Shown here: positions 32,695 to 55,573 of the stretch, one piece after another | Position numbering within the stretch: position 1 is the stretch's first letter | Layout of the letters: each line of letters begins with the position of its first letter | Source: Prevotella sp. | GTDB lineage: Bacteria; Bacteroidota; Bacteroidia; Bacteroidales; Bacteroidaceae | DNA length: 64,000 nucleotides | Assembly: GCA_021204905.1 (NCBI GenBank) | Contig: JAJPYN010000011.1 | Span: forward strand, 16,803 to 80,802 | Direction of reading: 5' to 3' | Program-made: the position numbers and the translations under genes | The notes under the pieces: generated by a model | Database searches by the model: none | Told to the model about the DNA's origin: nothing | The model's input: the letters and a program-made list of their open reading frames with translations, nothing else

Positions 32695-32756
32695 TCCGCC
32701 ATTTTTTTGACAAGACATTCGTTCGCGTTTTTCATTGGAATATTCGCCCTTTTCTT

Positions 32757-32764
32757 TATTTTTG
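32757..32764 (+). promoter_or_regulatory. -7 box (TATTTTTG) for the GH2 gene
   Basis: The motif lies 25 nt upstream of the ATG at 32789. Confidence 0.45.
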
Positions 32765-32788
32765 CACAAACTAAAAAAATCTTTTACG

Positions 32789-35338: not shown

Positions 35339-35341
35339 CTA

Positions 35342-36145
35342 ATGGACATTGAGCGGATAGAAAGCACGCAGAACGCGCGGATAAAGCACTTGCTGGCGTT
35401 GCAGGGGAAGTCGGCGTTGCGGCGCGAAGAAGGGCTCTTCGTGGTGGAGGGTCGGCGCGAACTGATGCACTGTCTTAATGCCGGGTTCGACATCGCCGGA
35501 GTGTTCTATTGTCCTGAAATACAGCCTTTTACGGAGGAAAAGGTAGTTTTTAATAAAGGCACGCAGTTGTTTTCCTTGTCGCGAAAGGTGTACGAGAAGG
35601 CGGCTTATCGCGGAAGCACGGAGGGCGTTATCGCCATTGTCAGGGAGCGCAGACTGACTTTTGACGACTTGCAACTGCCTGATAACCAATTAATTATAGT
35701 AGTGGAAGGCGTGGAGAAGCCCGGCAATCTCGGTGCGATATTGCGCACGGCGGACGGTGCGGGCGCGGATGCGGTGGTGTTCTGCGACGCGGGGGCCGAC
35801 CCTTACAACCCGAACCTGATCCGCAGTTCGATGGGGGCGGTGTTCTCGGTGCCGGTGGTTTGCAGTACGTCCGGGGAGTGCATCGCCTTCTTGAAAGGGC
35901 GCGGGATAAGGATTCTCACGGCGCAGTTGCAGGACTCCGAGCCGTATTACTCCGCCGATATGACCCGTCCCACGGCGATTGTGGTGGGCAACGAGGCGGC
36001 GGGGCTAACGGACGTCTGGCGGGAGAATGCCGACGGGCACGTGCTGATCCCCATGCTCGGGCGGTGCGACTCCCTCAACGTGTCCGCCAGCGCCGCCATC
36101 CTCGTGTATGAGGCGGTGAGGCAGAGGAGGGGGCAGTCAGAATAG
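35342..36145 (+). CDS. TrmH/SpoU family RNA 2'-O-methyltransferase
   Basis: Motifs EKPGNLGAILRTADGAG and LNVSASAAILVYE are present. Confidence 0.85.
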   Translation: MDIERIESTQNARIKHLLALQGKSALRREEGLFVVEGRRELMHCLNAGFDIAGVFYCPEIQPFTEEKVVFNKGTQLFSLSRKVYEKAAYRGSTEGVIAIVRERRLTFDDLQLPDNQLIIVVEGVEKPGNLGAILRTADGAGADAVVFCDAGADPYNPNLIRSSMGAVFSVPVVCSTSGECIAFLKGRGIRILTAQLQDSEPYYSADMTRPTAIVVGNEAAGLTDVWRENADGHVLIPMLGRCDSLNVSASAAILVYEAVRQRRGQSE

Positions 36146-36159
36146 TTTGAGCGATAAAC

Positions 36160-36267
36160 CTCTCGAGCGGAGTTTGGCGCAAGAAAAAGTTTATCTTAGT
36201 CGCTACTATAATCCCGGCTAAGTTTTGCGCTACGAACACCAGCCTTAGTTGTTTGGTACGTTTCAAC
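36160..36267 (+). repeat. Family-A intergenic repeat, copy c4
   Basis: The sequence is gagcggagtttggcgcaagaaaaagtttatcttagtcgctactataatcccggctaag...ggtacgtttcaac. Confidence 0.85.
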
Positions 36268-36316
36268 TTTTTCAAATTAATTTGACATTTTGCTTAATTT
36301 TGCGGGACGATTTAGG

Positions 36317-36324
36317 TACCTTTG
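36317..36324 (+). promoter_or_regulatory. -7 box (TACCTTTG) for the GH5 gene
   Basis: The motif lies 36 nt upstream of the ATG at 36360. Confidence 0.5.
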
Positions 36325-36359
36325 TACACGTTCAGAACAATCAGAAGAACGATTAGGAT

Positions 36360-37823
36360 ATGAAGAAGAATTTACTTATCGGGACGGCGTGGCTTGCCGC
36401 GTTTGTCTTGACGACGGGCAAGGTTGGCGCGCAGGACTTTGAGAGTGCGTCGGAGGCGGTGGCTAATATGCGTGTGGGCTGGAACGTTGGGAACAGTCTT
36501 GAAAGCAATTCTGGCGACCTTGACAATATGTGGATTGAGACGTGGACCGACCGGTCGCCTAACGCTTACGAGACGGCTTGGGGTCAGCCTGCCACGACGA
36601 AGGCATTGATTAAGATGTTTCGCGACGCGGGGTTCGGCGCCATTCGCGTGCCGGTTACTTGGTATCCGCATATCGACGATAACGGCGCTGTTGACGAGAA
36701 ATGGATGGCGCGCGTGAAAGAGGTGGTGGACTATGTGATTGATTTGGGGCTGTATTGCATTCTGAATGTTCATCACGACACGGGCTCGGCCAATACGGCT
36801 TGGCTCAGGGCGAGCGGCACCACCTACACCGGTACGAAGACGAAGTTTGAAGCCCTGTGGACGAATATCGCCAACGAGTTTAAGGACTACGGCGAGAAAC
36901 TGCTGTTCGAGGGCTACAACGAGATGCTCGACGATTACAGCTCGTGGTGCTTCGCCTCTTTCGGCACGTCGTCGGGCTATGATGCTTCGGTTGCTTCCGA
37001 CGCTTATTCGGCGATAAACAACTATGCGCAGAGCTTCGTCAATGCCGTGCGCGCTACGGGCGGGAACAATGCCGTGCGCAATCTTGTGGTGAACACCTAC
37101 GGCGGATGTGATGGCGACGGCACGTGGAGCAGTCATCTTTCCGACCCGCTCACGAATTTGAATTACCCCGAGGACAATGTCAGCGGCCATATCGCTTTCG
37201 AGGTGCATTACTACCCCACAATCTCGGACTTGTCGACATCCATCAGCGGCGCGCAGCAGTGCTTCGGGTCCATCAAGACGAACCTGATGTCGAAGGGTGC
37301 GCCGGTGATCATCGGCGAATGCGGCACGCTCGACGATACGGCATATAACACCAACCGGGATGTCATGCTCGAGTTCACCAAAGAATATATCGCGCTGGCG
37401 AAGGAGTACGGTATGGCTGCGTTCTATTGGATGACGCTCTCCGACGCCAGCGACCGCAGCGTTCCGCAGTGGACAACGGAGGATCTGAAGGACGCCATCA
37501 TCACCGGCTATTATGGCGACGAGGGCTTCACCTATGAGGGCGATGATGACGATGATGATATTGATTCCGACGGCAATGTTGAAGACAACAACGGCAATGT
37601 TGACGAAAACAACGGCGATGACAATTCCGACGGCAATGTTGAAGACAACAACGGCAATGTTGAAGATAACAATGGCAATGTTGACGACGACACCAACGGC
37701 ATCAAGAACGTCTCTTCCGACGATAGCAACGAGCCTGTCTACAATATGCAAGGCGTGCGCGTGGATGATATGTCGAAGAAAGGCCTCTATATCAAGGGCG
37801 GCAAGAAATATATTGTAAGGTAG
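36360..37823 (+). CDS. GH5 endoglucanase/cellulase with an Asp/Asn-rich repeat linker and a T9SS C-terminal sorting domain
   Basis: A signal peptide is present, with WNVGNSLE and the LFEGYNEM catalytic Glu. The linker is built of GNVEDNN repeats. The C-terminus is ..VYNMQGVRVDDMSKKGLYIKGGKKYIVR. Confidence 0.85.
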   Translation: MKKNLLIGTAWLAAFVLTTGKVGAQDFESASEAVANMRVGWNVGNSLESNSGDLDNMWIETWTDRSPNAYETAWGQPATTKALIKMFRDAGFGAIRVPVTWYPHIDDNGAVDEKWMARVKEVVDYVIDLGLYCILNVHHDTGSANTAWLRASGTTYTGTKTKFEALWTNIANEFKDYGEKLLFEGYNEMLDDYSSWCFASFGTSSGYDASVASDAYSAINNYAQSFVNAVRATGGNNAVRNLVVNTYGGCDGDGTWSSHLSDPLTNLNYPEDNVSGHIAFEVHYYPTISDLSTSISGAQQCFGSIKTNLMSKGAPVIIGECGTLDDTAYNTNRDVMLEFTKEYIALAKEYGMAAFYWMTLSDASDRSVPQWTTEDLKDAIITGYYGDEGFTYEGDDDDDDIDSDGNVEDNNGNVDENNGDDNSDGNVEDNNGNVEDNNGNVDDDTNGIKNVSSDDSNEPVYNMQGVRVDDMSKKGLYIKGGKKYIVR

Positions 37824-38045: not shown

Positions 38046-38053
38046 TACTTTTG
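38046..38053 (+). promoter_or_regulatory. -7 box (TACTTTTG) for the six-gene operon
   Basis: The motif lies 19 nt upstream of the ATG at 38072. I saw no other TAnnTTTG box until 46133. Confidence 0.5.
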
Positions 38054-38071
38054 CAGCGTAATTGAATAAAG

Positions 38072-39598
38072 ATGAGGAGCGGTCTATCAGGGAAATATTG
38101 GCGCGGGGGGCTGACGTTGCTGTTTGCGGCGGGTATCTTCGCGTTTTGGAAGTTCGGTTACCCTCAGGCGCTGTCGTATCAGGAGCAGAACCAGTTGTTC
38201 CTGTTCTCGGGCGATTATTTCTGGAAGGACGTGCGCGTGGCGGGGGGCTTGTCGGCGTGGTTGTCGGAGTTTCTCGTGCAGTTTTATTATGTGGAGTGGC
38301 TCGGTGCGCTCATCCTTGCTTTGCTGTTCGCGTGCCTGCAGCGGTTGACGTGGGTTTACATTAAGAGGTTGACGACGAGATGGCGCGCACTATGGTTTAT
38401 TGTTAGCTTCATTCCCGCGCTGTTGCTATTGGGCGTTATGGGCGACCATAATGTGCTGCTGGCGTTCCCTGTCGCCGTTGTTCTTGCCGTGGCGATTGCC
38501 GTGCTTATGCGGCGCGCGTCGTTGTGGTGGGACTTGCTTATAATTCCGATTTGCTTCTGGCTTGTGGGCAGCACGATGTGGATTTATGTTGCTTTGCGGC
38601 TGTTCGACAAAGGGCTGAGGCATTGCTACCTGCGTCTGTGGCTTGCGCCTTACCTGCTCGGCGTGCAGCTGTTGGCGGCTTATACGGTGCTGTCGCTCTG
38701 GTCGCCTGTTACGGTTATTCGCGGCAACGGCTATTACCGCATCCCCTACCCTTACACCGATTACACTTTCGGTTTCAACAAAGACGTTTACGAGCTGCTG
38801 CGGCAGGATTATCTTGTGCGCAACGAGCGTTGGGACGAGATTATCCGTCGTGCGGAGAAATACCAACCGAAGACGCCGTTCAGCTCGGTCTGCGTAAACC
38901 TTGCGCTGGCGAAGAAGCACCAGTTGGCCGAGCGTATGTTCGATTTCTACCAGAGCGGGCGGGACGCGCTGGTGATGCCCATTTTCCGCGACAATATGTC
39001 GGATATGCCCACGAGCGAGGTGTTTTGGCACTTGGGGATGATCAACTCGTGCCTGCGCTATTCGTTCGATTTGCAGGAGGCCATCCTCAACGCCAAACGG
39101 TCGTCGCGCCTGACGAAAAGGCTGACGCAATGTTACATCATCAACGGCAAGTATGAAGTGGCTCAGAAGCACCTCGCGCTGCTGAAAAAGACCTTGTTCT
39201 ACCGCCGTTGGGCGCTGGAGACGGAGCGTATTATGCAGAGCGAGGCGGCAATCAACGCGCACCCTGTCTACGGCCGTAAGCGGCAGTTGCGGTTTAAGAC
39301 GGAGATGCTTTACAACTACAACGAGATTGACAAGATGTTCGGTTTGCTCTTCGTCAACGACCCTTCGAACACGCTCGCGCTCGATTATTTTATGGCGCAG
39401 ATGCTCCTCCGCGGCGATGTCGACGGCTTCATCAACCACCTGCCGTGGGCGCAGCAGTACGGCGGTTACCAGCAGATGCCGCGCGGCTATCGTGATGCGC
39501 TGCAATGCATTCAGGCGGGCGGCAACTTGCCCGGTTCGTCTTACGCCAAGTACATCAAGTTTATGAGCGAGACGGGGCGCGTGAGGAAGCCTGAATAG
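38072..39598 (+). CDS. polytopic membrane protein with a helical-repeat C-terminal domain (DUF6057-like), paralogue A
   Basis: 508 aa with about 7 TM helices followed by ~270 aa of helical repeats. The ALSYQEQNQLFLF loop motif is shared with the paralogue at 41742. Confidence 0.6.
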   Translation: MRSGLSGKYWRGGLTLLFAAGIFAFWKFGYPQALSYQEQNQLFLFSGDYFWKDVRVAGGLSAWLSEFLVQFYYVEWLGALILALLFACLQRLTWVYIKRLTTRWRALWFIVSFIPALLLLGVMGDHNVLLAFPVAVVLAVAIAVLMRRASLWWDLLIIPICFWLVGSTMWIYVALRLFDKGLRHCYLRLWLAPYLLGVQLLAAYTVLSLWSPVTVIRGNGYYRIPYPYTDYTFGFNKDVYELLRQDYLVRNERWDEIIRRAEKYQPKTPFSSVCVNLALAKKHQLAERMFDFYQSGRDALVMPIFRDNMSDMPTSEVFWHLGMINSCLRYSFDLQEAILNAKRSSRLTKRLTQCYIINGKYEVAQKHLALLKKTLFYRRWALETERIMQSEAAINAHPVYGRKRQLRFKTEMLYNYNEIDKMFGLLFVNDPSNTLALDYFMAQMLLRGDVDGFINHLPWAQQYGGYQQMPRGYRDALQCIQAGGNLPGSSYAKYIKFMSETGRVRKPE

Positions 39599-39610
39599 AA
39601 GAAGGAAACG

Positions 39611-41083
39611 ATGAAAAGGATTTTTACATATCTGTCGATACTCGCGGTTGTCGTGGCGTTTGTTGCTTGCGGAGGCAGGGTGAAGGATGCCAAGCGCATC
39701 CACCGCGTGCCGCCGATTTTCCCCGATTACACCGAAGTAACCGTCCCCGTGGATATTGCGCCGCTGTGCTTCAACTTCGCCGACGAGAGCGTGAAGCGGA
39801 TGGATGTTGTCGTGCGCGGCAGCAAGGGCGGCGAGCTGCATTCGTCGGGCAGCTATGCCGATTTCAGCGTGAAGGCTTGGCATAAGTTGACTGAGCGGAA
39901 TAAGGGCGGCGAACTGATTGTTACGGTGTGCGTTAAGCGCGGCGGGGAATGGTTGCAGTACGACGATTTTAAGATTTACGTCAGCTCGTATCCGCTGACC
40001 GACTACGGCGTAACCTACCGGCGTATTGCTCCGGGCTACGAGGCGGGCGGCAACATCGGCATCTGGCAGCGCGACATACATTCGTTTAAGGAGAGCCCGA
40101 TTCTCACCGAATATTCCACGCCGACCTATTGCATGAACTGCCACACCGCCAACCGTTGCGACCCGAAGGAGTTCTCCATCCAGATACGCGGCGAGCGCGG
40201 CGCAACGATCTTGCAGATTGACGGCAAGCAGAAATTCCTGTCGACAAAGACCGACTCGACGCGCGCGGCGTGCAGTTACACCTATTGGCACCCGTCGGGC
40301 AAGTATATAGCCTACGCCACGAATGCGGTGTTTCAGGCGTTCTTCGTGGGGACGTACAAGCCGAAAGAGGTTTACCACACGTTCAGCGACATCGTCCTTT
40401 TAGACACGCGCACCGACGAGCTGATTTTAGACCCTCACCTGCAGACGGAGGATTTGGAGATCTTCCCCGCCTTTTCCGCCGACGGCAAGACATTGTTTTA
40501 CAGCACGTCGAAGCCCTGCCGGATGCCTGCGGAGTATCTGAAAGTGAAATGCAGCCTGTGCGCCATCGGGTTCGACGAGAAGACCGGCACGTTCGTTGGC
40601 GAGCCTGACACGCTGCTCAACGGACCCGCCGACGATATGAGTTACATCAACGCGCGGCCTTCCTACGACGGCAGATGGCTGATGTACACGCGTTGCAGCC
40701 GCAGCAATTTCTCCGTCGAGCAGCGTGATGCCGATCTGTGGCTGATGGATCTGCGGACGAAAGAAGTGAAGGAGCTGACCGTGATGAACAGCGATTTCAG
40801 CGACGGTTGGCATAATTGGAGCACCGACTCGCACTGGGTGGTGTTCGCCAGCAAGCGCGGCGACAGCTTTTACGGCAAGCTTTATTTCGCGTCGATCGAC
40901 GACGAGGGTAATGCCACGAAGCCGTTTCTCCTGCCGCAGCGCAACCCGCGCGAGTACTACCGGCTGACGTTCGACGCTTACAACGCGCCCGACTTCACCA
41001 AGACGCCCGTGAAATTCAATATCCGCGAGGCAAGAAAGAATCTGTTTAAAGGCGACAGGACACAAGTAGAAATAAGACAATAA
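39611..41083 (+). CDS. lipoprotein with a single CXXCH motif and PD40/TolB-like propeller repeats, paralogue A
   Basis: A lipobox (FVACG) is present. CMNCH lies at 40130-40144. PD40-like strings are WHPSGKYIAYATN, FSADGKTLFYS, PSYDGRWLMYT and WSTDSHWVVFASKR. Confidence 0.6.
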   Translation: MKRIFTYLSILAVVVAFVACGGRVKDAKRIHRVPPIFPDYTEVTVPVDIAPLCFNFADESVKRMDVVVRGSKGGELHSSGSYADFSVKAWHKLTERNKGGELIVTVCVKRGGEWLQYDDFKIYVSSYPLTDYGVTYRRIAPGYEAGGNIGIWQRDIHSFKESPILTEYSTPTYCMNCHTANRCDPKEFSIQIRGERGATILQIDGKQKFLSTKTDSTRAACSYTYWHPSGKYIAYATNAVFQAFFVGTYKPKEVYHTFSDIVLLDTRTDELILDPHLQTEDLEIFPAFSADGKTLFYSTSKPCRMPAEYLKVKCSLCAIGFDEKTGTFVGEPDTLLNGPADDMSYINARPSYDGRWLMYTRCSRSNFSVEQRDADLWLMDLRTKEVKELTVMNSDFSDGWHNWSTDSHWVVFASKRGDSFYGKLYFASIDDEGNATKPFLLPQRNPREYYRLTFDAYNAPDFTKTPVKFNIREARKNLFKGDRTQVEIRQ

Positions 41084-41084
41084 G

Positions 41085-41723
41085 ATGAGACGAATATTAT
41101 TTTTCTTAGCGGCGCTGCTGACTGTATGCTTCGCCGTAGAGAGTTGCAAAAACAACCCCGACGAGGGCAAATGCGTCATCGAAGGCACCATCAACCCGCG
41201 CTTCAACAACAAGAGGATTTTCCTTGTGCCGATGAACGGTCCGCAGGATGCCGCGCATGTCGACTCCGTCGTGGTCAGGAACAGCAAGTTCCGCTTCGTG
41301 AAAGACACCACCGAGTTGGCCGTCATCCGCGTGGATTATCATTTCCGCACGGGCGTGCAAGACTTGCTCCTTATCACCGAGCCGGGAAAGGTGGAGGTTG
41401 TGATTGACTCGGTTAGCGACTGCAAAGGCACGCCGCAGAACGACTCGATAAGCAAATGGAAAGGCATGTCGGCGCAGTTCAACGCCAACCACGTGGCGCG
41501 CGTCAGGCAGATGCGTGCGGCAAAGCGGCAGGGCGACACGCTCACTGTCAGCCGTATGAAGGCCGAGATCGACTCGTGCTATAAGGCGTACAAGGCGCAA
41601 TCGCGGCAGTTGGCGGACAACCTGAAAGAGGGCGTGCTGCACGACTTCCTCGAGACCACTTTCCCGCGCACTTATAAGAAGCGCATGCCCGACGGCAGCA
41701 TCAAAACGGTTGCTAACGAATAA
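41085..41723 (+). CDS. DUF4369-like lipoprotein without a thioredoxin domain
   Basis: A lipobox (AVESC) is present. CVIEGTINPRFNNKRIFLV resembles the DUF4369 N-terminal module of Bacteroidota TlpA-like proteins. There is no CXXC motif. Confidence 0.45.
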   Translation: MRRILFFLAALLTVCFAVESCKNNPDEGKCVIEGTINPRFNNKRIFLVPMNGPQDAAHVDSVVVRNSKFRFVKDTTELAVIRVDYHFRTGVQDLLLITEPGKVEVVIDSVSDCKGTPQNDSISKWKGMSAQFNANHVARVRQMRAAKRQGDTLTVSRMKAEIDSCYKAYKAQSRQLADNLKEGVLHDFLETTFPRTYKKRMPDGSIKTVANE

Positions 41724-41741
41724 GTCCGGCGCGCCGCACGT

Positions 41742-43487
41742 ATGATGTCCGCAATCTGTCGCCGGTCGCTCGTTGTGTCGCTGCTCTTCGCGGCGGCTGC
41801 GGCTGCGGTGTGGGCGGTGGAATATGTCGGTGCGCTGTCTTATCAAGAGCAATATCAGCTATTCCTTTGGACCGGCGGCTATTTCGCCTCGCGCATTGTT
41901 TTGCCCGGCGGACTGGCGGACTGGTTTGCCGAATGTCTGACGCAATTCAATTTCCTGCCCGCGTTAGGCGCGATAATCATTGCCGCGCTTTTCTTCGTAT
42001 TTCAGCGATTGACGTGGCTTGTGATGAAAGCTCTCGGCGCAAGCAGCGGCTGGTACGGCTTGTCGTTCGTGCCCGTCCTGTTGCTGTGGCTTTACCAGTC
42101 GGACCCGAACGTGATGCCGTCGCTGACAATATCATTGATTGCTGCAACATCCGCCGTTTATGCAATAATAAAATTCGCAAGGGGGAAAAAGGGCTGCACA
42201 TTAATAAATATCTTCGCTGTAATCATCCTCCTGCCGCTGTTCTATTGGCTGTTCGGCACGGCGGTTTATATCGTCGCAGCGGCAATCCTGATTGAGACAA
42301 TACGCTGCAAACGACCTTTATTCGGCTTGCTCGCCGCAGTTTATGCCGTCGCGTTCGTCTATGCGATGTCGTTCGTCCTGCCTTACTCCGAGAGCCGCCT
42401 GCTCATCGGGCTGCACTACTACCGCTATCCCGTCAACGTGCCTGCGATGCAATGGGTTGTGCTGGCGGCGGCGCTGCTTGTGCCTTACATTTCGGCGATA
42501 TTGCCCCGCTGGCGGTCGGTGGTCTTTGAGATAATCCTTTTGATAATGGTCTTCGCCGCGGGCGGAATAGCGATAAGAAACGCCTTCAACGACGATGCCC
42601 ACGAGCTGATCGACTACGATTACCTTGTCCGCACCGAGCAATGGGACGCCATCATCAGTAAGGCTGAGAAGAAGCAACCCTCGTCGCCGATGAGCGTGTC
42701 GATTGTCAACCTTGCGCTCAGCCAACGCGGACTGTTGCTCGAACGCTTGTTCCATTTCTTTCAGAACGGCGGCGAAGGGCTGTTCCCCGCTTTTTCGCGA
42801 GACATCCTCTCGCCTGTCTCCACGGCAGAGATCTTCTTCCGGCTCGGCATGGTCAACGATTGCGAGCGTTATTGCTTCGAGGCGATGCAGTCGATACCCG
42901 ATTTCCAACGCTCGGGCAGACTGATGAAACGCATAACGCAGTGCGAAGTAGCGAACGGGCAATACAAAGTGGCGAGGCGCTATCTGCTGCAACTATCGCG
43001 CTCGACGTTCTACCGCAAGTGGGCGAAAAAGACGCTTGCCATGCTCGGCAACGAACAGCTCATCAACGACGACCCGGCATACGTGCGTCTGCGCGGCAAC
43101 CGCGAGCAGCACTCCGACTATCTGTTCTCCGAGCGCGAGATGGACCAGATGACGGGCCTGCTGCTGATGAACAACCCGAAGAACCGCATGGCTTACGAAT
43201 ATCTCATCGCCTACGAACTGCTGCAACGCGACCTGCAACATTTCAGCGAGTACTACATCTTGGGGCAAAACATTGATTATCAGCGGCTTCCGACCGTCAT
43301 TCAGGAGGTGCTCATCGGGCAATGGCTGCAAACACACGGCACACTGCGCGGCATACCGTTCAGCGTGGAGCCGTCGGTGGTGAACGGTACGGCGGACTTC
43401 CTACGCGCATATATGGCAAACCGCGACGACGCGCGCCTAAAGCAACCGCCGATGTGTTACAACGCGTGGAGGTACCTGCTAAAATAA
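41742..43487 (+). CDS. polytopic membrane protein with a helical-repeat C-terminal domain (DUF6057-like), paralogue B
   Basis: 581 aa. It shares ALSYQEQYQLFLW, FQRLTWL, DYLVRTEQWD, VNLALSQ and RITQCEVANGQYKVA with paralogue A. Confidence 0.6.
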   Translation: MMSAICRRSLVVSLLFAAAAAAVWAVEYVGALSYQEQYQLFLWTGGYFASRIVLPGGLADWFAECLTQFNFLPALGAIIIAALFFVFQRLTWLVMKALGASSGWYGLSFVPVLLLWLYQSDPNVMPSLTISLIAATSAVYAIIKFARGKKGCTLINIFAVIILLPLFYWLFGTAVYIVAAAILIETIRCKRPLFGLLAAVYAVAFVYAMSFVLPYSESRLLIGLHYYRYPVNVPAMQWVVLAAALLVPYISAILPRWRSVVFEIILLIMVFAAGGIAIRNAFNDDAHELIDYDYLVRTEQWDAIISKAEKKQPSSPMSVSIVNLALSQRGLLLERLFHFFQNGGEGLFPAFSRDILSPVSTAEIFFRLGMVNDCERYCFEAMQSIPDFQRSGRLMKRITQCEVANGQYKVARRYLLQLSRSTFYRKWAKKTLAMLGNEQLINDDPAYVRLRGNREQHSDYLFSEREMDQMTGLLLMNNPKNRMAYEYLIAYELLQRDLQHFSEYYILGQNIDYQRLPTVIQEVLIGQWLQTHGTLRGIPFSVEPSVVNGTADFLRAYMANRDDARLKQPPMCYNAWRYLLK

Positions 43488-43497
43488 TCTTAACCAA

Positions 43498-44967
43498 ATG
43501 AAACACAGCATATTTGCATTATTATTACTCCTCTTGGCAGCTTGCAACACCGCGCCGCGCAACGCCAAGCACGCAAATAAGACGCCGGAGATTTATCCCG
43601 ACTACATCGGCGTAACCATCCCCGCCTCTATCGCGCCTATGAACTTCGACTTTGCCGGCGAATGCGACAGGATTGACGTGGTGATAACCGGCTCGAAAGG
43701 CGGGCGGCTGCATTCGGGCGGCAAGCGGCTGAACATCAATATCGACAAGTGGCACGCGCTGACCGAACGCAACAAAGGCGGGCGGCTCACCTTCGAAGTA
43801 AGCATACGGCGGGGCGCGACGTGGACGCAATATAAGCCGTTCGATATGTTTGTCAGCAGCGACGACCTCGGCGAATGGGGCCTCACCTACCGCCGCATCG
43901 CACCGGGCTATGAGGTGTTCGGGCGCATGGGCATCTACCAGCGCGACCTGTCGACATTCAAAGAGACGGCGATCATCGAGAACACGCTGCCGCCCGGAGC
44001 TTGTTTCAACTGCCACACATCCAACCGCACCGACCCCGAACAGATCACTTTCCACGTGCGCGGGGAGCACGGCGCGACATTCATCCGGCACGACGGCAAG
44101 GACGAGATACTGCAAGCGGTGAACGACTCCATCGGCGGCTCGCTCGTCTATCCCTATTGGCACCCGTCGGGAAGATGGACGGCATACTCGACGAACACCA
44201 CGCGGCAGGGCTTTCACGCCATACGCAGCGAGCGCATTGAGGTGTTCGACCAAGCCTCCGACGTGCTCATCTTCGACCCGGAGACGCACACCATCCTGCG
44301 CGACACGATAGTAGGCACGAAATCGCACTACGAGACCTACCCCGTCTTCTCGCCCGACGGCAAGACGCTCTATTTCTGCTCGTCGACAGCCGAACCTATC
44401 CCCGCGCGCTATCAAGAGATAAAATACAACATCTGCCGCATCGCTTTCGACCCCGCCACAGGGCAACTCACGGGAGCAGTCGACACCATTTTCAACGCGC
44501 GCGCCATAGGGAAAAGCGCCATCCATCCGCGGCCTTCCTACGACGGGCGCTACTTGATGTTCACCCTCGCGGACTACGGCTGCTTCCCCATCTGGCACAA
44601 GGAGGCGGACAACTGGCTGCTCGACCTGCAGACATTGCAAGCCGCCGCACTGACCGAAGCCAACAGCGGCGACACCGACAGCTGGCATAATTGGAGCGGC
44701 AACAGCCGGTGGTTCGTGTTCACCTCACGGCGCGGCGACGGCCTCTACACGCGCCTCTACCTCTGCCATATCGACGGCGGCAAAGCAAGCAAGCCGTTCC
44801 TTCTGCCGCAGAAATCGCCGAAAGCATTTTACAACAATATGCTCTATTCATACAACACCCCCGACTTCACGGCGCGCCCCGTAGCTCTCGACAAGCGGCG
44901 GACTTCCAAGGCGATAAGCAAAGCCGAGCGCGTGGCGACCAAAGTGAAAAATATGAACACAAAATAA
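43498..44967 (+). CDS. lipoprotein with a single CXXCH motif and PD40/TolB-like propeller repeats, paralogue B
   Basis: A lipobox (LAACN) is present. CFNCH lies at 44002-44016. It is colinear with paralogue A (YRRIAPGYE, WHPSG, FSPDGKTLYF, PSYDGRYLMFT, WHNWS). Confidence 0.6.
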   Translation: MKHSIFALLLLLLAACNTAPRNAKHANKTPEIYPDYIGVTIPASIAPMNFDFAGECDRIDVVITGSKGGRLHSGGKRLNINIDKWHALTERNKGGRLTFEVSIRRGATWTQYKPFDMFVSSDDLGEWGLTYRRIAPGYEVFGRMGIYQRDLSTFKETAIIENTLPPGACFNCHTSNRTDPEQITFHVRGEHGATFIRHDGKDEILQAVNDSIGGSLVYPYWHPSGRWTAYSTNTTRQGFHAIRSERIEVFDQASDVLIFDPETHTILRDTIVGTKSHYETYPVFSPDGKTLYFCSSTAEPIPARYQEIKYNICRIAFDPATGQLTGAVDTIFNARAIGKSAIHPRPSYDGRYLMFTLADYGCFPIWHKEADNWLLDLQTLQAAALTEANSGDTDSWHNWSGNSRWFVFTSRRGDGLYTRLYLCHIDGGKASKPFLLPQKSPKAFYNNMLYSYNTPDFTARPVALDKRRTSKAISKAERVATKVKNMNTK

Positions 44968-44970
44968 ACT

Positions 44971-46095
44971 ATGCTTTCCTTACACAAGCAAATCATCGAC
45001 CGGCGGATAAAGGCGGAAAAGACAATATTCACTGCCGCCGACGGGGAAAAGGAAATTCACGTCCTGCTCTCCGCCGACCATAATTCTGCAACGGATTTCC
45101 CCTCGCTGCTCGCCGCCATGCTAAAAGTTTGCGACCGGCAGGCGGCACAAGAGAACGCCGCAATAATCCTGCAAAGATTTTTCGTAACCGACGCTGCAAA
45201 CAGACAAGCGGTTATTCTTAACGCCCTGAAAAACAAACCCTTACGCGCCGTATCAATAGTAGAGCAACCGCCGGCGGACGGCAGCGAAATCGCGCTGTGG
45301 GCTTACTTGTCGACGGGCGCATCTGTTTCTAAAACAAAGGAGGGAATGATCATCGCCGAGCATAGGCAGTACACGCAGTTTTGGGCGACCAATCTCACGG
45401 CAAACGGCAGCGAGGAGCGCGAAGAGACTTTCAACATCTTCCGCCGCTATTCCGACCTGCTGGCAACGCACGGTTTGACCTTGCGCGCAGGCTGCCGGCG
45501 CACGTGGCTCTTCGTGAGCGACATCGACCGCCGCTATTCGGGCATGATACGCGGACGCAACGACGCCTTCGACCGCGAGGGGCTCACCGCAGAGACGCAC
45601 TTCATCGCAAGCACGGGCATCGCGGGCAACAACCCCGCAGGAAAGTCGGTGATGATGGACGCCGTGGCATACAAAGGCATAGCCGAAGACAAGATACATT
45701 ATCTATACGCCGCCAACCGGATGAACCGCACAAGCGACTACGGCGTGCGTTTCGAGCGCGGCACGGCCATCGACCTTCCGCAAAGCAGACTGGAGTACAT
45801 CTCCGGTACGGCAAGCATCGACAACAAAGGGCAAATCGTCGCGACGGGCGATGTACTCCGGCAAGCGGAACGGATGATGGGCAATGTCGAGGCGCTGCTC
45901 GCGGAGGCCGGTTGCAATATCGGCGACATACAGCAATCGCTCGTTTACCTGCGCAACGCGGACGATTATTTCAAAGTGGCTGAATGGTTCGACAACCGCT
46001 ACCCCGCCCTGCCCCGCCTCATCCTCCACGCGCCGGTCTGCCGCACGGACTGGCTCATAGAAATAGAGTGCATGGCAAGCGCGGCCAAGCCATAA
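44971..46095 (+). CDS. RidA/YjgF-superfamily protein, chorismatase (FkbO/Hyg5/XanB2)-like
   Basis: RRTWLFVSDIDRRYSGMIRGRNDAF resembles the chorismatase RxWNxxxxI...YxxFxxGRxxAF signature. The C-terminal YjgF-like end is ISGTASID..VYLRN..WLIEIECMA. Confidence 0.45.
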   Translation: MLSLHKQIIDRRIKAEKTIFTAADGEKEIHVLLSADHNSATDFPSLLAAMLKVCDRQAAQENAAIILQRFFVTDAANRQAVILNALKNKPLRAVSIVEQPPADGSEIALWAYLSTGASVSKTKEGMIIAEHRQYTQFWATNLTANGSEEREETFNIFRRYSDLLATHGLTLRAGCRRTWLFVSDIDRRYSGMIRGRNDAFDREGLTAETHFIASTGIAGNNPAGKSVMMDAVAYKGIAEDKIHYLYAANRMNRTSDYGVRFERGTAIDLPQSRLEYISGTASIDNKGQIVATGDVLRQAERMMGNVEALLAEAGCNIGDIQQSLVYLRNADDYFKVAEWFDNRYPALPRLILHAPVCRTDWLIEIECMASAAKP

Positions 46096-46132: not shown

Positions 46133-46140
46133 TAATTTTG
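46133..46140 (+). promoter_or_regulatory. -7 box (TAATTTTG) for ppiD
   Basis: The motif lies 39 nt upstream of the ATG at 46179. Confidence 0.45.
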
Positions 46141-46178: not shown

Positions 46179-48320
46179 ATGGCAGCATTAGGCAAAATCA
46201 GAAGCAAGGGTAAAATTCTTGCCATAATCATCGGCTTGGCGCTCTTCGCCTTCATCGCCGAGGAGCTCTTCCGCTCGTGCGAGAGCACACGCAACGACCA
46301 GCGGCAACAGATCGGCAAGATCCTCGGACACCGCGTGAGCGTGCAGGAATTCCAATCGTTATTCGATGAGTATCAGGAAGTTATGAAACTGCAGCGCGGC
46401 ACGGAGAGCCTCACCGAAGAGGAGTCGAACCAAGCGAAAGACTGGGTGTGGAACTCGCTCATCCAGTCGCGCATCCTCGAGAACGAGACGCAGAAGCTCG
46501 GGCTGACCGTTACCGACCAAGAGATGCAGGACGTGCTCAACGAAGGCACCAACCCGATGCTCCGCCAGACGCCGTTCGTAGACCAGCAGACGGGGCGGTT
46601 CGACGCCAACCAGCTGAAAAAATTCCTCGCCGAATACAAGGCGCAGCAGACCGCCAACCCGCAGCTCGCCGAGCAGTACCGCACGCTCTACCACTTCTGG
46701 ACGTTCGTCGAGAAGAACCTTCGCCAGCAGCTCCTCGCGCAGAAATATCAGGCGCTGTTCAGCCACTGCCTGCTCACGAACCCCGTCGAGTGCAAAGCGG
46801 CGTTCGAGGCTTCCAACGAGGAGGCTGACATCCAGCTCGCGGCCTTTGCTTACAATGATGTCAACGACTCGAAGATTAGCATCTCCGACGCCGACATGAA
46901 GAAGAAATACGACGAGATTAAAGAGACCTTCCGGCAATATGTCGAGACGCGCAACGTGAAATACATTGATATTCAAGTAGATGCGTCCGCTGCCGACCGC
47001 GCCGAGTTGCAAGCGCAGTTCGACGGTTATGCTGCCGAGCTCGCCGACGCTGCCGACCCGTCCGACCTTGTCCGCAAGAGCACGTCGCTCGTGGCTTACC
47101 TCGGGCTGCCCGTGAAGAAAAACGCGTTCCCGGCGGACATCTCGGCGATGATCGATTCGCTCGCCGTGGGCCAGACCTCGCAGGTGTTCGAGACCAAGCG
47201 CGACAACACGCTCAACGTGATGAAGGTCGTCTCGAAAGAGAGCCTGCCCGACTCCGTCGAGTACCGCCAGATACAGGTGGCCGCGGACACGCCGGAGCAG
47301 TCGCGCGCCAAGGCCGACTCGATTTACAACGCGCTGAGCAACGGCGCCGACTTCGAACTTGTGGCGAAGAACTACGGTCAGACGGGCGAGACCATCTGGC
47401 TCACCACCGCGCAATACCAGTCGTCGCCCTCGCTCGACGCCAACACGCGCACCTACCTTGAGACGCTCAACACGCTTGCGCCGGGCGAGATAAAGAACCT
47501 CGATCTCGACCAAGTGAACATCGTCGTACAGGTGGTAAGCCGCCGCGCATTCGTCGACAAATATGTCGTTGCGGCCGTAAAGAAAACCATCGATTTCTCG
47601 CACGAGACCTATTCTGCGGCATACAATAAATTCGCGGCGTTCGTCAGCGCCAACCGCACGGGCGAGGACATCGTGAAGAACGCCGAAGGCAGCGGTTACA
47701 CCGTGAGCGAATACAGCGACCTTACCACTGCGGCGCACGACATCGCCAATATCCACGGCACGCGCGACGCTCTCAAATGGGTGTTCGACGCGAAGGAGGG
47801 CGCCGTTTCGCCGATGTATGAATGCGGCGATAACAACCACCTGCTCGTTGTCGTGCTCGACAAGATCAACAAGAAGGGTTACCGCGGGCTCGACGATGCG
47901 CAAGTGGCTGACTTCATCAAGGCCGAGCTGACGAAGGACAAGAAGGCCGAGGTAATCCTTGCCGACATCAAAGGCGTGAAGAGCGTGAAGGATGCCGCTG
48001 CGAAAGGCGGGAAGACCGCGCCGATAAAGAGCATCACGTTCGCCACGCCCGCGTTCGTGCCGCTGACGGGTACGGCGGAGGCTGCGCTGTCGGGAGCGGT
48101 GGCGAGCACGCCGAAGGGCAAGTTCTGCAACAAGCCCGTGAAAGGCGAAGGCGGCGTGTATGTTTATCAGGTGGTGAACAAGACGCAGCGTGAGGGCAAG
48201 TACGACGCGGCGAGGACGAAGGCGCAGTTGAAGCAGAAGGCTATGCAGGCCACGGGCAGTTTCATGAACGAGCTGCGCACGAACGCCGACGTTACGGACA
48301 ACCGCTACATCTTCTTCTAA
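46179..48320 (+). CDS. ppiD: periplasmic chaperone PpiD-like (SurA N-terminal/PPIase family)
   Basis: 713 aa with an N-terminal TM anchor (ILAIIIGLALFAFI). The long helical/parvulin-like body is typical of Bacteroidota PpiD. Confidence 0.75.
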   Translation: MAALGKIRSKGKILAIIIGLALFAFIAEELFRSCESTRNDQRQQIGKILGHRVSVQEFQSLFDEYQEVMKLQRGTESLTEEESNQAKDWVWNSLIQSRILENETQKLGLTVTDQEMQDVLNEGTNPMLRQTPFVDQQTGRFDANQLKKFLAEYKAQQTANPQLAEQYRTLYHFWTFVEKNLRQQLLAQKYQALFSHCLLTNPVECKAAFEASNEEADIQLAAFAYNDVNDSKISISDADMKKKYDEIKETFRQYVETRNVKYIDIQVDASAADRAELQAQFDGYAAELADAADPSDLVRKSTSLVAYLGLPVKKNAFPADISAMIDSLAVGQTSQVFETKRDNTLNVMKVVSKESLPDSVEYRQIQVAADTPEQSRAKADSIYNALSNGADFELVAKNYGQTGETIWLTTAQYQSSPSLDANTRTYLETLNTLAPGEIKNLDLDQVNIVVQVVSRRAFVDKYVVAAVKKTIDFSHETYSAAYNKFAAFVSANRTGEDIVKNAEGSGYTVSEYSDLTTAAHDIANIHGTRDALKWVFDAKEGAVSPMYECGDNNHLLVVVLDKINKKGYRGLDDAQVADFIKAELTKDKKAEVILADIKGVKSVKDAAAKGGKTAPIKSITFATPAFVPLTGTAEAALSGAVASTPKGKFCNKPVKGEGGVYVYQVVNKTQREGKYDAARTKAQLKQKAMQATGSFMNELRTNADVTDNRYIFF

Positions 48321-55436: not shown

Positions 55437-55573
55437 ACGCCGCAAAGGTAAGCCAAAAACGGCGATAACCGCCCTTTGACAAAGGAAAAATTGCGCCCTT
55501 TGCAAGGCAGACGCCAATCTCGCGCCGAACCAAAAATTCTTCGCCCTAATTTTGCCGCGCGCCCAACTTTGGT

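What the first reader, a model, noticed from the sequence alone, without database searches (positions are those of the whole stretch)
38046..46095. Six-gene operon built on a tandemly duplicated pair of a polytopic membrane protein and a CXXCH propeller lipoprotein, with no assignable function
Six same-strand ORFs are separated by only 12, 1, 18, 10 and 3 nt. One TAnnTTTG box (38046) precedes them, and the next one (46133) follows them. The order is membrane protein A, lipoprotein A, a DUF4369-like lipoprotein, membrane protein B, lipoprotein B and a RidA/chorismatase-like enzyme. The A and B copies are clearly paralogous, at roughly 35-45% identity by eye. The membrane proteins share ALSYQEQxQLFL, QRLTW, DYLVRxExWD and RxTQCxxxNGxYxVA. 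The lipoproteins share YRRIAPGYE, CxNCHT, WHPSG, FSxDGKTL, PSYDGR and WHNWS. This points to a two-component module that was duplicated and kept. The membrane protein has about 7 TM helices, a conserved acidic first extracytoplasmic loop and a ~270-aa helical-repeat domain. That layout is reminiscent of GT-C-type glycosyl/lipid transferases or polymerase/ligase-like proteins, but I recognise only an uncharacterised Bacteroidota family (DUF6057, from recollection). None of the six products has an established role that explains their co-occurrence.
Basis: partly seen in the sequence, partly recalled or inferred. Interest (0 to 1): 0.8.

Follow-up and report, generated by a model that had tools for sequence, protein, structure and literature searches.

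The report
Membrane protein–haem lipoprotein pairs, function unknown
This operon carries two copies of an unstudied gene pair (an inner-membrane protein plus a propeller-shaped lipoprotein that probably binds haem) that is common in gut and rumen Bacteroidales and usually sits inside gene clusters for digesting plant fibre.

Summary
Six same-strand ORFs (38072-46095) are spaced 12, 1, 18, 10 and 3 nt apart: DUF6057 membrane protein (M), CxNCH propeller lipoprotein (L), DUF4369 protein (D), a second M-L pair, and a chorismatase-fold protein (CHOR).

Across 160 related loci, 159 of 170 M genes in the first 80 are followed directly by an L. Sixty-two junctions are ATGA overlaps. The M and L paralogue types match with no exceptions, so M-L is a real, co-duplicating two-protein module. 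No paper in the held library mentions DUF6057.

- **GT-C/Wzy idea:** not supported. There is no fold, profile or Pfam match for the membrane domain.
- **Haem:** CxNCH is invariant in 162 of 162 L proteins.
- **Link to cytochrome c maturation:** CHOR relatives sit beside the cytochrome c synthetase CcsBA in 5 of 7 contexts inspected. One of these is an M-L-CHOR-CcsBA operon.
- **Fibre-digestion context:** the module is usually embedded in SusC/SusD loci and, in several different gene orders, next to beta-mannan or xyloglucan genes.

My best reading, at low-to-moderate confidence, is a membrane-docked monohaem c-type cytochrome module that accompanies hemicellulose utilisation. Its reaction and the membrane topology of M remain unresolved.

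The parts
38046..38053 (+). TACTTTTG, a Bacteroidota -7-type promoter box 18 nt upstream of the memA start codon
   Evidence: Sequence read. Pattern count: 25 in the window against about 9 expected. No transcript data.
38072..39598 (+). memA: DUF6057 inner-membrane protein, 508 aa. Lacks two helices present in memB. C-terminal TPR-like domain of about 280 aa.
   Evidence: PF19529 E 2e-121. 34% identical to memB. Falls in paralogue type 2.
38168..38203 (+). Codons for ALSYQEQNQLFL, the conserved first periplasmic loop motif of memA
   Evidence: Coordinates. The equivalent Glu (E36 of memB) is conserved in 97% of 169 homologues.
39611..41083 (+). lipA: lipoprotein with an N-terminal beta domain and a TolB-like beta-propeller, 490 aa
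   Evidence: Lipobox FVAC. PD40 hit. 44% identical to lipB.
40130..40144 (+). Codons for CMNCH (residues 174-178), the putative c-type haem attachment site of lipA
   Evidence: Coordinates. CxxCH is present in 162 of 162 homologues, as CxNCH in 161.
41085..41723 (+). D: exported protein (possible lipoprotein) with a DUF4369 domain and a helical tail, 212 aa. No thioredoxin domain.
   Evidence: PF14289 E 1.9e-8, residues 31-120. A homologue is present in 76 of 160 related loci.
41742..43487 (+). memB: DUF6057 inner-membrane protein, 581 aa. N terminus in the cytoplasm. Eight helices in the AlphaFold model, then a TPR-like domain of about 300 aa.
   Evidence: PF19529 E 2.5e-150. AlphaFold pLDDT 89, pTM 0.85. 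No PDB fold match.
41832..41867 (+). Codons for ALSYQEQYQLFL, the conserved first periplasmic loop motif of memB (includes E36)
43498..44967 (+). lipB: lipoprotein (lipobox LAAC) with an N-terminal beta domain and a TolB-like propeller, 489 aa
   Evidence: AlphaFold pLDDT 85, pTM 0.87. Foldseek matches TolB at E 3e-13.
44002..44016 (+). Codons for CFNCH (residues 169-173), the putative haem c attachment site of lipB
   Evidence: Further invariant histidines at H222 and H397.
44971..46095 (+). CHOR: cytoplasmic two-domain RidA/chorismatase-fold protein, 374 aa
   Evidence: PF01042 and TIGR04444 (47.7 bits, below cut-off). Aligns over both domains to PDB 5ag3 and 4bps. Relatives sit next to CcsBA.
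46133..46140 (+). TAATTTTG, the promoter box of the next gene (a PpiD-like chaperone, 46179-48320). Marks the downstream end of the operon.
32735..37823 (+). Upstream context: GH2 (32735-35338), a SpoU/TrmH methyltransferase (35342-36145) and GH5 (36360-37823)
   Evidence: Pfam. The GH2 is 62% identical to the GH2 that lies directly upstream of the M-L cluster in L075.

Best explanation
The six genes form one transcription unit built around two copies of a conserved two-protein module.

**What the parts are**
- M is a DUF6057 inner-membrane protein. Its N terminus is in the cytoplasm, its first loop is a conserved Glu/Gln-rich periplasmic loop, and it ends in a TPR-like domain.
- L is a periplasm-facing lipoprotein with an N-terminal beta domain and a TolB-like propeller. 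It carries a covalently attached c-type haem at the invariant CxNCH motif.
- M and L are made in coupled fashion and act as a 1:1 membrane-docked complex.
- The two remaining genes are accessories of the haem protein rather than of glycan chemistry. DUF4369 is otherwise the N-terminal domain of Bacteroidota TlpA/ResA-type thiol-disulfide oxidoreductases. The chorismatase-fold protein otherwise travels with the cytochrome c synthetase CcsBA.

**Where it belongs**
- In the wider family the module is an accessory part of SusC/SusD loci for plant hemicelluloses (beta-mannan, xyloglucan).
- In this genome it sits next to GH2 and GH5 genes without a SusC/SusD pair.

**Most likely role**
- A periplasmic electron-transfer or redox step that accompanies uptake or processing of hemicellulose-derived material.

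**Shown versus inferred**
- Shown: operon structure, paralogy, strict M-L pairing and co-divergence, the invariant motif, and the genomic contexts.
- Inferred: haem attachment, physical M-L complex, the roles of D and CHOR, and redox function.
- Unknown: the substrate and the electron partner.
For: **Pairing**
- 159 of 170 M genes are followed directly by a same-strand L. Six more lie at contig ends, and the other five have a miscalled ORF, or CHOR or D, as the next gene.
- 62 junctions are 4-nt ATGA overlaps and the median gap is -1.
- Every L in an independent L-seeded metagenome sample that has room upstream has an M there.
- Three of four M proteins at about 30% identity keep an L.
- Pairwise identities of M and L correlate at r = 0.94. 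The two-type split of M (48 versus 108) matches that of L with no exceptions.

**Haem**
- CxxCH is present in 162 of 162 L proteins, as CxNCH in 161, across paralogue types that share about 37% identity.
- H222 and H397 are also invariant.
- L carries a lipoprotein signal peptide.
- A fused ResB+CcsA synthetase lies in the operon M-L-CHOR-CcsBA in L113.
- CHOR relatives sit immediately beside CcsBA in L164, L165, L167 and L169, next to or near di-haem DHOR genes.
- Bacteroides, Porphyromonas and Prevotella carry NrfAH with CcsBA (PMC10434189).

**Polysaccharide-locus context**
- SusC/SusD is present in 81 of 160 loci, commonly as SusC-SusD-lipoprotein-[D]-(M-L)n.
- GH26-GH130-MFS_2-epimerase lies downstream of M-L in Bacteroides and Parabacteroides, and upstream of it in L114 and L132.
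- A GH2 beta-mannosidase is inserted between M and L in L081.
- GH31 and GH2 follow CHOR in L129.
Against: - No haem has been shown. The CxNCH loop has low model confidence (pLDDT 58-74), and no cytochrome Pfam or NCBIfam model matches L.
- CcsBA is adjacent in only 1 of 163 M-L loci, and the window itself holds none.
- M has no conserved His, Cys or Met and no match to any redox or quinone-binding family, so there is no evident electron path to the membrane.
- The window has no SusC/SusD, GH26 or GH130.
- Some distant M-L pairs have no glycan genes nearby (L170).
- Part of the SusC/SusD linkage may be inherited synteny, because most sampled loci are Prevotellaceae.
- No redox step is known or needed in beta-mannan or xyloglucan catabolism by anaerobes.
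Confidence: 0.4

Rival explanations
1. The operon is one functional cytochrome (L) plus its private maturation team. M is a dedicated factor that holds, docks or supplies cofactor to its own L during export, lipidation and haem attachment. D and CHOR assist the same process. Whatever L does, M has no separate catalytic role.
For: - It explains in one stroke the strict 1:1 pairing, the co-duplication without partner swapping and the translational coupling.
- DUF4369 is, from my own knowledge, the usual N-terminal domain of TlpA/ResA-like proteins.
- CHOR is adjacent to CcsBA in 5 of 7 contexts.
- The conserved Arg/Tyr-rich site formed by loop 6 and the C-terminal domain of M could bind an anionic ligand.
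Against: - The motif is a standard CXXCH, which the general CcsBA should handle.
- M has no conserved His or Cys for handling haem.
- M shows no relationship to CcsBA by hhalign (probability 0.6%).
- One distant DUF6057 protein is solitary.
Confidence: 0.2
2. M-L is a trans-membrane sensing device for the polysaccharide locus. L senses a periplasmic ligand or redox state through its propeller or haem. It signals through the first periplasmic loop of M to a cytoplasmic TPR-like domain, which binds a cytoplasmic partner.
For: - The AlphaFold model gives a single 36-residue helix at residues 153-188.
- The uncharged run after the invariant G172 is only 9-13 residues in most members.
- Together these give an even helix count, which would place the TPR-like domain in the cytoplasm.
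- Many of the SusC/SusD-M-L loci show no recognisable regulator within 10 kb.
- c-type haem sensor domains exist in other bacteria (own knowledge).
Against: - No DNA-binding or kinase partner is conserved in the neighbourhood. AraC regulators appear in only a few loci, and hybrid two-component (HTCS) regulators are rare.
- The positive-inside count slightly favours the opposite topology.
- Two to three pairs per locus is unusual for a sensor.
Confidence: 0.13
3. The module works in iron or haem acquisition or iron redox chemistry, and its position next to glycan genes is incidental or merely co-regulated. It would be a TonB-dependent receptor plus a periplasmic haem lipoprotein plus an inner-membrane protein, with CHOR making a hydroxybenzoate chelator or reductant.
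For: - CHOR relatives lie in loci with imelysin (Peptidase_M75), di-haem DHOR, CcsBA, FeoAB and a hemerythrin-GerE regulator.
- That locus type is induced 69- to 324-fold by iron starvation in B. thetaiotaomicron (BT2473-82, PMC10434189).
- Bacteroidales are haem auxotrophs (own knowledge).
Against: - The receptor next to M-L always has a SusD partner and a surface-lipoprotein gene, the hallmark of glycan loci.
- Linkage to GH26/GH130/GH2/GH31 recurs in several different gene orders.
- No Feo, imelysin or Hmu gene was found among the recurrent neighbours of the 160 M-L loci that were clustered and scanned.
Confidence: 0.1
4. CxNCH binds a structural or catalytic metal, or forms a redox disulfide, rather than haem. 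L would then be a glycan-binding or glycan-cleaving propeller, with M as its membrane dock.
For: - Propeller folds are common in glycoside hydrolases and lyases. An oligogalacturonate lyase is among the Foldseek hits (3pe7, E 1.9e-7).
- L has many invariant aromatic and acidic residues.
- The glycan context is strong.
Against: - The exact C-x-x-C-H spacing is kept in 162 of 162 proteins.
- CcsBA lies in the operon in L113, and CHOR is linked to CcsBA elsewhere.
- No CAZy-type family matches L.
Confidence: 0.1
5. One reading: M is a GT-C-type glycosyl or lipid transferase, or a Wzy/ligase-like polymerase, that modifies an envelope component, with L as its partner or substrate.
For: - M is a polytopic protein with an invariant acidic residue in a long first periplasmic loop that contains short helices.
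- It has a helical-repeat domain, as in TPR-bearing GT-C enzymes (own knowledge).
Against: - No PDB structure matches below E 0.1 despite many solved GT-C structures. The only such hit, chain 8b6l_I of the human OSTA translocon complex, has E 0.57 and TM-score 0.21.
- The profile search of PDB sequences is empty.
- No GT-C Pfam family appears, even at E up to 10, in 65 members.
- No polyprenyl-phosphate sugar synthase or flippase is among the recurrent neighbours.
Confidence: 0.04

Closest known systems
Pfam DUF6057 (PF19529)
   Same: Both membrane proteins are full-length members (E 2e-121 and 2.5e-150).
   Different: The family has no known function, structure or literature. This work adds an obligate lipoprotein partner and the genomic context.
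TolB of the Tol-Pal system
   Same: Best structural match of lipB: a beta-propeller with an extra N-terminal domain (E 3e-13, TM-score 0.46-0.54).
   Different: - L is lipidated and carries an invariant CxNCH.
- It scores 25 bits against a 343-bit equivalog cut-off.
- It has no tolQRA or pal neighbours.
- It pairs with a DUF6057 protein instead.
SusC/SusD polysaccharide-utilisation loci, especially the beta-mannan type (GH26, GH130, MFS_2 symporter, cellobiose 2-epimerase)
   Same: Relatives of the module lie inside or beside such loci in several gene orders.
   Different: M, L, D and CHOR are not among the described components of these loci. The window's own copy has no SusC/SusD within 64 kb.
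System II cytochrome c maturation (CcsBA with a ResA/TlpA-type thioredoxin)
   Same: - CcsBA lies in one M-L-CHOR operon and next to CHOR relatives elsewhere.
- DUF4369 is the usual N-terminal domain of Bacteroidota TlpA-like proteins (own knowledge).
   Different: - M is unrelated to CcsBA.
- D has no thioredoxin domain.
- A RidA/chorismatase-fold partner of CcsBA has not been described, to my knowledge.
FkbO/Hyg5/XanB2 chorismatases
   Same: - Gene 6 has the same two-domain layout and aligns to PDB 5ag3 and 4bps over residues 174-369.
- The alignment includes the C-terminal VCRxDxLxEIE stretch.
- Some homologues carry PF21168.
   Different: - It scores only 47.7 bits against a 325-bit cut-off.
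- No aryl-polyene, polyketide or quinone pathway genes are nearby.
- It travels with c-type cytochrome genes instead.
Membrane-docked periplasmic redox modules, such as quinohaemoprotein propeller dehydrogenases or cofactor-free NrfD/PsrC-type membrane subunits with a periplasmic redox partner
   Same: Analogy of layout only: a propeller plus haem c, held at the inner membrane by a polytopic protein with no cofactors of its own (own knowledge).
   Different: No sequence or fold relationship was found. No organic cofactor, substrate or quinone site has been identified.

Membership tests
DUF6057 (PF19529) | Full-length match above the Pfam gathering score | tested here: met
   407 and 503 bits against a 29.8-bit cut-off.
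GT-C glycosyltransferases / Wzy-type polymerases and ligases | Transmembrane core with the GT-C (or Wzy) fold | tested here: not met
   Foldseek of a pLDDT-89 model against the PDB gave no match at E <= 0.001. The best E was 0.11, to a helical-repeat subunit of a transcription elongation complex.
GT-C glycosyltransferases / Wzy-type polymerases and ligases | Sequence or profile similarity to a member family | tested here: not met
   A 65-member profile against PDB sequences found nothing relevant. Pfam at E up to 10 on 65 members gave only TPR-type families.
GT-C glycosyltransferases / Wzy-type polymerases and ligases | Conserved acidic residue in the first extracytoplasmic loop | tested here: met
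   E36 is invariant in 65 diverse members and 97% conserved in 169. This feature is not specific to GT-C.
GT-C glycosyltransferases / Wzy-type polymerases and ligases | Genes for a lipid-linked donor (polyprenyl-phosphate sugar synthase, flippase) in the neighbourhood | tested here: not met
   None among the recurrent neighbours of the 160 loci that were clustered and scanned.
c-type cytochrome | CXXCH haem-attachment motif | tested here: met
   CxxCH in 162 of 162 L proteins, CxNCH in 161. Window coordinates 40130-40144 and 44002-44016.
c-type cytochrome | Export to the periplasmic side | tested here: met
   Signal peptides with lipoboxes FVAC and LAAC. A lipobox-like motif is present in 125 of 162 called ORFs.
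c-type cytochrome | A cytochrome c maturation system in the same organism | tested here: inconclusive
   CcsBA is adjacent in 1 of 163 loci and absent from the window. The lineage is known to have CcsBA (PMC10434189). Whole genomes could not be checked.
c-type cytochrome | Covalently bound haem | not testable with these tools
   Needs haem staining, a pyridine haemochrome assay or mass spectrometry.
TolB (Tol-Pal system) | Propeller fold with an N-terminal domain | tested here: met
   Foldseek match to 2hqs at E 3e-13, TM-score 0.46/0.54.
TolB (Tol-Pal system) | Equivalog-level sequence match and a tolQRA-pal neighbourhood | tested here: not met
   TIGR02800 scores 22-25 bits against a 343-bit cut-off. 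No tol or pal genes were noted in the neighbours examined.
FkbO/Hyg5/XanB2 chorismatase | Score above the family cut-off | tested here: not met
   TIGR04444 scores 47.7 bits against a 325-bit cut-off.
FkbO/Hyg5/XanB2 chorismatase | Two-domain RidA-like architecture with the C-terminal catalytic Glu region | tested here: met
   Residues 174-367 align to residues 125-337 of 5ag3, including VCRTDWLIEIE against VCRSDLLVEIE. That this Glu is the catalytic residue is my recollection, not something tested here.
FkbO/Hyg5/XanB2 chorismatase | Chorismate cleavage activity | not testable with these tools
   Needs an enzyme assay.
SusC/SusD polysaccharide-utilisation locus | Adjacent SusC/SusD pair | tested here: not met
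   This applies to the window's own copy: there is no SusC/SusD homologue in the 64 kb. Relatives do meet it, in 81 of 160 loci.
SusC/SusD polysaccharide-utilisation locus | Co-located carbohydrate-active enzymes | tested here: met
   In the window, GH2 and GH5 lie upstream. In relatives, GH26, GH130, GH2, GH31, GH9, GH3, GH43, GH115 and esterase-like genes are present (by reading the sequences, 64, 76, 77).

The most novel reading that the evidence does not exclude
A haem-c-dependent periplasmic redox step is an integral and so far unrecognised part of hemicellulose use in strictly anaerobic gut and rumen Bacteroidales. It would be carried out by a new kind of two-protein unit: a DUF6057 membrane protein with no cofactors of its own, docking a monohaem propeller lipoprotein. 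The chorismatase-fold protein would be a new cytoplasmic accessory of system II cytochrome c maturation.
Probability: 0.15. Interest if true: 0.85.

Novelty: categorically new. Interest (0 to 1): 0.65.

Why it matters
- **Scale.** The module is abundant. About 3050 clusters at 50% identity match the membrane protein, and there are thousands of lipoprotein relatives. It occurs in organisms that dominate fibre digestion in the human gut and the rumen, including Segatella copri, Prevotella, Bacteroides and Parabacteroides.
- **A gap in well-studied loci.** It sits inside the class of loci that has been dissected most closely in these bacteria, yet none of its four gene families has a described role.
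- **If L is a cytochrome.** Polysaccharide-utilisation loci of anaerobes would contain an electron-transfer component that current models do not account for.
- **A separate lead.** The CHOR-CcsBA linkage is independently testable and bears on how haem-auxotrophic Bacteroidales make c-type cytochromes.
- **Even if the redox idea fails.** The strict M-L pairing defines a new membrane/periplasm protein complex that is easy to test genetically.

Tried and rejected
- **GT-C / Wzy fold for M.** Rejected. Foldseek against the PDB, a profile against PDB sequences, and permissive Pfam scans of the separate domains and of 65 members all came back empty.
- **M as a CcsBA-like haem handler.** Rejected. 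hhalign probability is 0.6%, and M has no conserved His or Cys.
- **L as TolB.** Rejected on score and context.
- **Riboswitch or known RNA in the leader.** Rfam found nothing between 35000 and 49000 apart from a chance-level hit.
- **Sigma-70-type promoter and terminator scans.** Uninformative, at shuffle level.
- **Literature.**
  - No paper mentions DUF6057 or PF19529.
  - DUF4369 gets only incidental mentions.
  - No paper combines polysaccharide utilisation with CXXCH.
  - No paper links chorismatase to Bacteroidales in a relevant way.
- **Published mannan loci.** The main-text passages I searched in papers on S. copri and B. cellulosilyticus mannan loci do not mention these genes. Term searches of the supplementary tables of the S. 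copri paper and of a rumen Segatella/Xylanibacter transcriptome paper found no entry for these families.
- **General O-oligosaccharyltransferase of Bacteroidota.** Considered and dropped. The family is multi-copy, and one paper I checked gave no lead on the identity of that enzyme.
- **Third (type 1) pair, SusC/SusD or CcsBA in the window.** None found.
- **Membrane topology of the C-terminal domain.**
  - Not settled.
  - The AlphaFold helix pattern and hydrophobic run lengths favour a cytoplasmic domain.
  - The Lys+Arg loop counts slightly favour a periplasmic one.

Full report
**1. The observation**

The window holds six + strand ORFs at 38072-39598, 39611-41083, 41085-41723, 41742-43487, 43498-44967 and 44971-46095. 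They are separated by 12, 1, 18, 10 and 3 nt.

- Pfam places ORFs 1 and 4 in DUF6057 (PF19529, E 2e-121 and 2.5e-150).
- ORFs 2 and 5 have PD40 propeller repeats.
- ORF 3 has a DUF4369 domain.
- ORF 6 has a C-terminal RidA/L-PSP domain. It also matches the FkbO/Hyg5 chorismatase model over both halves, but weakly (47.7 bits against a 325-bit cut-off).
- The two membrane proteins are 34% identical (E 2e-91). The two lipoproteins are 44% identical (E 2e-152).
- The TAnnTTTG boxes at 38046 and 46133 are real. A third + strand match at 43845, inside lipB, was overlooked and is probably chance.
- Homologues that carry a source name are from Prevotella or Prevotellaceae assemblies.

**2. Is the pair a real module?**

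I collected 80 loci seeded with the membrane protein (M) from one genome per species. I collected another 80 seeded with a distant lipoprotein (L) from metagenomes.

- In the first set, 159 of 170 M genes are followed directly by a same-strand L. Six more lie at contig ends. In the other five the next gene is a miscalled ORF, or CHOR or D.
- Sixty-two junctions are 4-nt ATGA overlaps and the median gap is -1, which points to translational coupling.
- In the L-seeded set, every L with room upstream has an M there.
- Of four M proteins at about 30% identity, three keep an L immediately downstream and one is solitary.
- Pairwise identities of partnered M and L proteins correlate at r = 0.94.
- The deepest split of the M tree (48 type 1, 108 type 2) matches the split of the L tree with no exceptions. 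The pairs have therefore duplicated as units and have not swapped partners.
- Loci carry one (54), two (66) or three (31) adjacent pairs.
- The window has two type 2 pairs and no type 1 pair.
- The M family is large: 3050 clusters at 50% identity match at E <= 0.001.

**3. What the proteins look like**

*Membrane protein M*

- memB gives a confident AlphaFold model (pLDDT 89, pTM 0.85).
- It has N-terminal transmembrane helices. The first loop (residues 27-72) contains three short helices and the invariant E36, Q39 and F41. It ends in an all-helical domain of about 300 residues.
- Foldseek finds no PDB match below E 0.1. The weak hits are almost all TPR or other helical-repeat proteins.
- A 65-member profile finds nothing in the PDB.
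- Pfam scans at E up to 10 show only TPR-type families.
- The GT-C / Wzy lead is therefore not supported.

*Topology of M*

- The N terminus is cytoplasmic and the first loop is periplasmic. Both follow clearly from charge counts over 169 sequences.
- The side of the C-terminal domain is unresolved.
- The model has one 36-residue helix at 153-188, and the uncharged run after the invariant G172 is only 9-13 residues in most members. That argues for a single pass and a cytoplasmic domain.
- The Lys+Arg counts in the later loops slightly favour two passes and a periplasmic domain.
- memA lacks two helices that memB has, so both copies keep the same orientation.

*Lipoprotein L*

- lipB also models well (pLDDT 85, pTM 0.87).
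- It has a lipobox, a conserved N-terminal beta domain and a propeller whose best matches are TolB structures (E 3e-13).
- It fails the TolB equivalog score by a wide margin.

**4. The haem motif and the accessory genes**

- CxxCH is present in 162 of 162 L proteins, as CxNCH in 161. This holds across paralogue types that share only about 37% identity.
- H222 and H397 are also invariant.
- The motif lies in a loop of an all-beta region with low model confidence. That would be expected if a cofactor is missing from the model, but it proves nothing.

Two independent context signals point to a genuine c-type cytochrome.

- First, in locus L113 the order is SusC-SusD-lipoprotein-M-L-CHOR followed, 1 nt later, by a fused ResB+CcsA cytochrome c synthetase. 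This is the only such case among 163 loci.
- Second, I looked up six relatives of the window's last gene (41-45% identical) in their own contigs.
  - Four sit immediately beside a fused CcsBA: L164, L165, L167 (which has two tandem copies) and L169.
  - Three of those four loci also hold a di-haem DHOR protein and an imelysin. FeoAB (L165) and a hemerythrin-GerE regulator (L164, L165, L169) are also present in some of them.
  - Two relatives have no cytochrome gene nearby.
  - This matches the B. thetaiotaomicron BT2473-82 locus, which is induced 69- to 324-fold by iron starvation (PMC10434189).

CHOR therefore tracks c-type haem proteins and their synthetase, not glycan enzymes.

- It still looks like a chorismatase-family protein. 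It aligns with 5ag3 and 4bps across both domains, including the C-terminal VCRxDxLxEIE stretch. Some homologues carry PF21168.
- Whether it cleaves chorismate, binds haem or does something else is unknown.
- DUF4369 is, from my own knowledge, the usual N-terminal domain of Bacteroidota TlpA/ResA-type thiol-disulfide oxidoreductases. Here it occurs without a thioredoxin domain.
- M itself is unrelated to CcsBA (hhalign probability 0.6%).

**5. Genomic context in relatives**

Counts over the 160 loci:

| Feature | Loci |
|---|---|
| SusC or SusD | 81 |
| DUF4369 gene | 76 |
| CHOR | 39 (38 of them adjacent to and co-directional with M, L or D) |
| Any of GH26, GH130, MFS_2 symporter, cellobiose-2-epimerase-like gene | 32 |

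The commonest layout is SusC-SusD-surface lipoprotein-[D]-(M-L)n. The link to hemicellulose genes recurs in different gene orders:

- Bacteroides and Parabacteroides...D-M-L-M-L-GH26-GH130-MFS_2-epimerase-esterase.
- L114 and L132: GH26-GH130-MFS_2-epimerase-M-L-CHOR.
- L081: SusC-SusD-x-D-M-GH2 beta-mannosidase-L.
- L129 and L135: M-L-CHOR-GH31-GH2, a xyloglucan-type set (GH31 and GH2 confirmed on L129 and L123).
- GH9, GH3, GH43 and GH115 genes and a hybrid two-component regulator appear in other loci.
- Segatella copri-type loci have SusC-SusD-lipoprotein plus M-L pairs and CHOR, but no glycoside hydrolase.

The window's own copy has no SusC/SusD, GH26 or GH130 within 64 kb. It lies downstream of a GH2 and a GH5. 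The GH2 is 62% identical to the GH2 found directly upstream of M in L075. Some distant pairs have no glycan genes at all (L170).

Part of the SusC/SusD linkage could be inherited synteny, because most sampled loci are Prevotellaceae. The several permuted arrangements argue for selection on the linkage.

**6. How it most likely works**

- *Shown:* an operon of two co-duplicated, translationally coupled M-L pairs, an invariant haem-attachment motif, accessory genes that elsewhere accompany cytochrome c maturation, and embedding in hemicellulose-utilisation loci in relatives.
- *Inferred:* L is a monohaem c-type cytochrome held at the inner membrane by M. D and CHOR serve its maturation or haem supply. 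The module performs a periplasmic electron-transfer or redox step that accompanies uptake or processing of hemicellulose-derived material. I put about 0.4 on this composite.
- *Weakest link:* the redox step itself. No substrate, electron partner or quinone site is evident, and the known mannan and xyloglucan pathways of anaerobes need none.
- *Rivals:*
  - M is a private maturation or docking factor for L (0.2).
  - M-L is a trans-membrane sensor for the locus (0.13).
  - The module works in iron or haem acquisition (0.1).
  - CxNCH is a non-haem metal or disulfide site in a glycan-binding propeller (0.1).
  - M is a GT-C-type transferase (0.04).

**7. Comparison with what is known, and novelty**

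- M is a member of DUF6057 and of nothing else detectable.
- L has a TolB-like fold but is not TolB.
- Gene 6 is chorismatase-like but falls below the family threshold and sits in an unprecedented context.
- The system-level layout resembles membrane-docked periplasmic redox modules only by analogy.
- No paper in the held library mentions DUF6057 or PF19529. The main-text passages I searched in papers on S. copri and B. cellulosilyticus mannan loci do not mention these genes.
- I rate it as categorically new in the sense that no described system contains these parts. Its function is still unknown.

**8. Verdict**

- Interest 0.65. The module is abundant in well-studied fibre-degrading gut bacteria, is probably a cytochrome in an unexpected place, and yields a second testable lead in the CHOR-CcsBA linkage. 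The mechanism remains inferential.

Noticed in passing
L164:6755-10146, L165:6688-10125, L167:6904-11307, L169:9001-11324, L113:11400-14587 (approximate): Relatives of the window's chorismatase-fold gene sit immediately beside a fused ResB+CcsA cytochrome c synthetase. Three of these loci also hold imelysin and di-haem DHOR genes, and some hold FeoAB or a hemerythrin-GerE regulator, as in iron-starvation loci. A RidA/chorismatase-fold companion of CcsBA has not been described, to my knowledge.
   Followed up: partly
window 36360-37823 and 63685-63849 (- strand): The GH5 upstream of the operon has a long Asp/Asn-rich repetitive linker (DGNVEDNNGNV...). It ends in a C-terminal stretch of about 55 residues that recurs at 45% identity at the far end of the window. 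This looks like a shared C-terminal sorting domain, possibly type IX secretion.
   Followed up: no
window 43845-43852: A third + strand TAnnTTTG match (TATGTTTG) lies inside the lipB coding sequence.
   Followed up: yes
L081:10001-16023 and L082 (same layout): In one Prevotella lineage a GH2 beta-mannosidase gene is inserted between the DUF6057 gene and its lipoprotein partner. This is one of the few cases where the pair is split.
   Followed up: partly
L083:10001-11758: A DUF6057 protein 31% identical to memB stands alone, with no propeller lipoprotein nearby. It lies next to two SiaC-family genes and a GH43. The pairing is therefore not universal across the whole Pfam family.
   Followed up: partly
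L114:48-3141 and L132 (same layout): Directly upstream of a GH26-GH130-MFS_2-epimerase-M-L-CHOR cluster lie four small genes. Two of them hit a URO-D-like methyltransferase family and a B12 methionine-synthase activation-domain family. This suggests a corrinoid-dependent demethylase set attached to a mannan locus.
   Followed up: no
window 53562-55517 (- strand): A 651-aa protein has a CotH kinase domain and an F5/8 type C (discoidin) domain.
   Followed up: no
L057, L062, L066, L077, L078, L080 (gene upstream of the type 1 M): In several Prevotella loci the position taken by the chorismatase-fold gene in S. copri is occupied by a gene of about 345 aa. Its stop overlaps the start of the type 1 M gene. 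By eye it looks like a PLP-dependent threonine-aldolase-type enzyme, but I did not scan it against any library.
   Followed up: no
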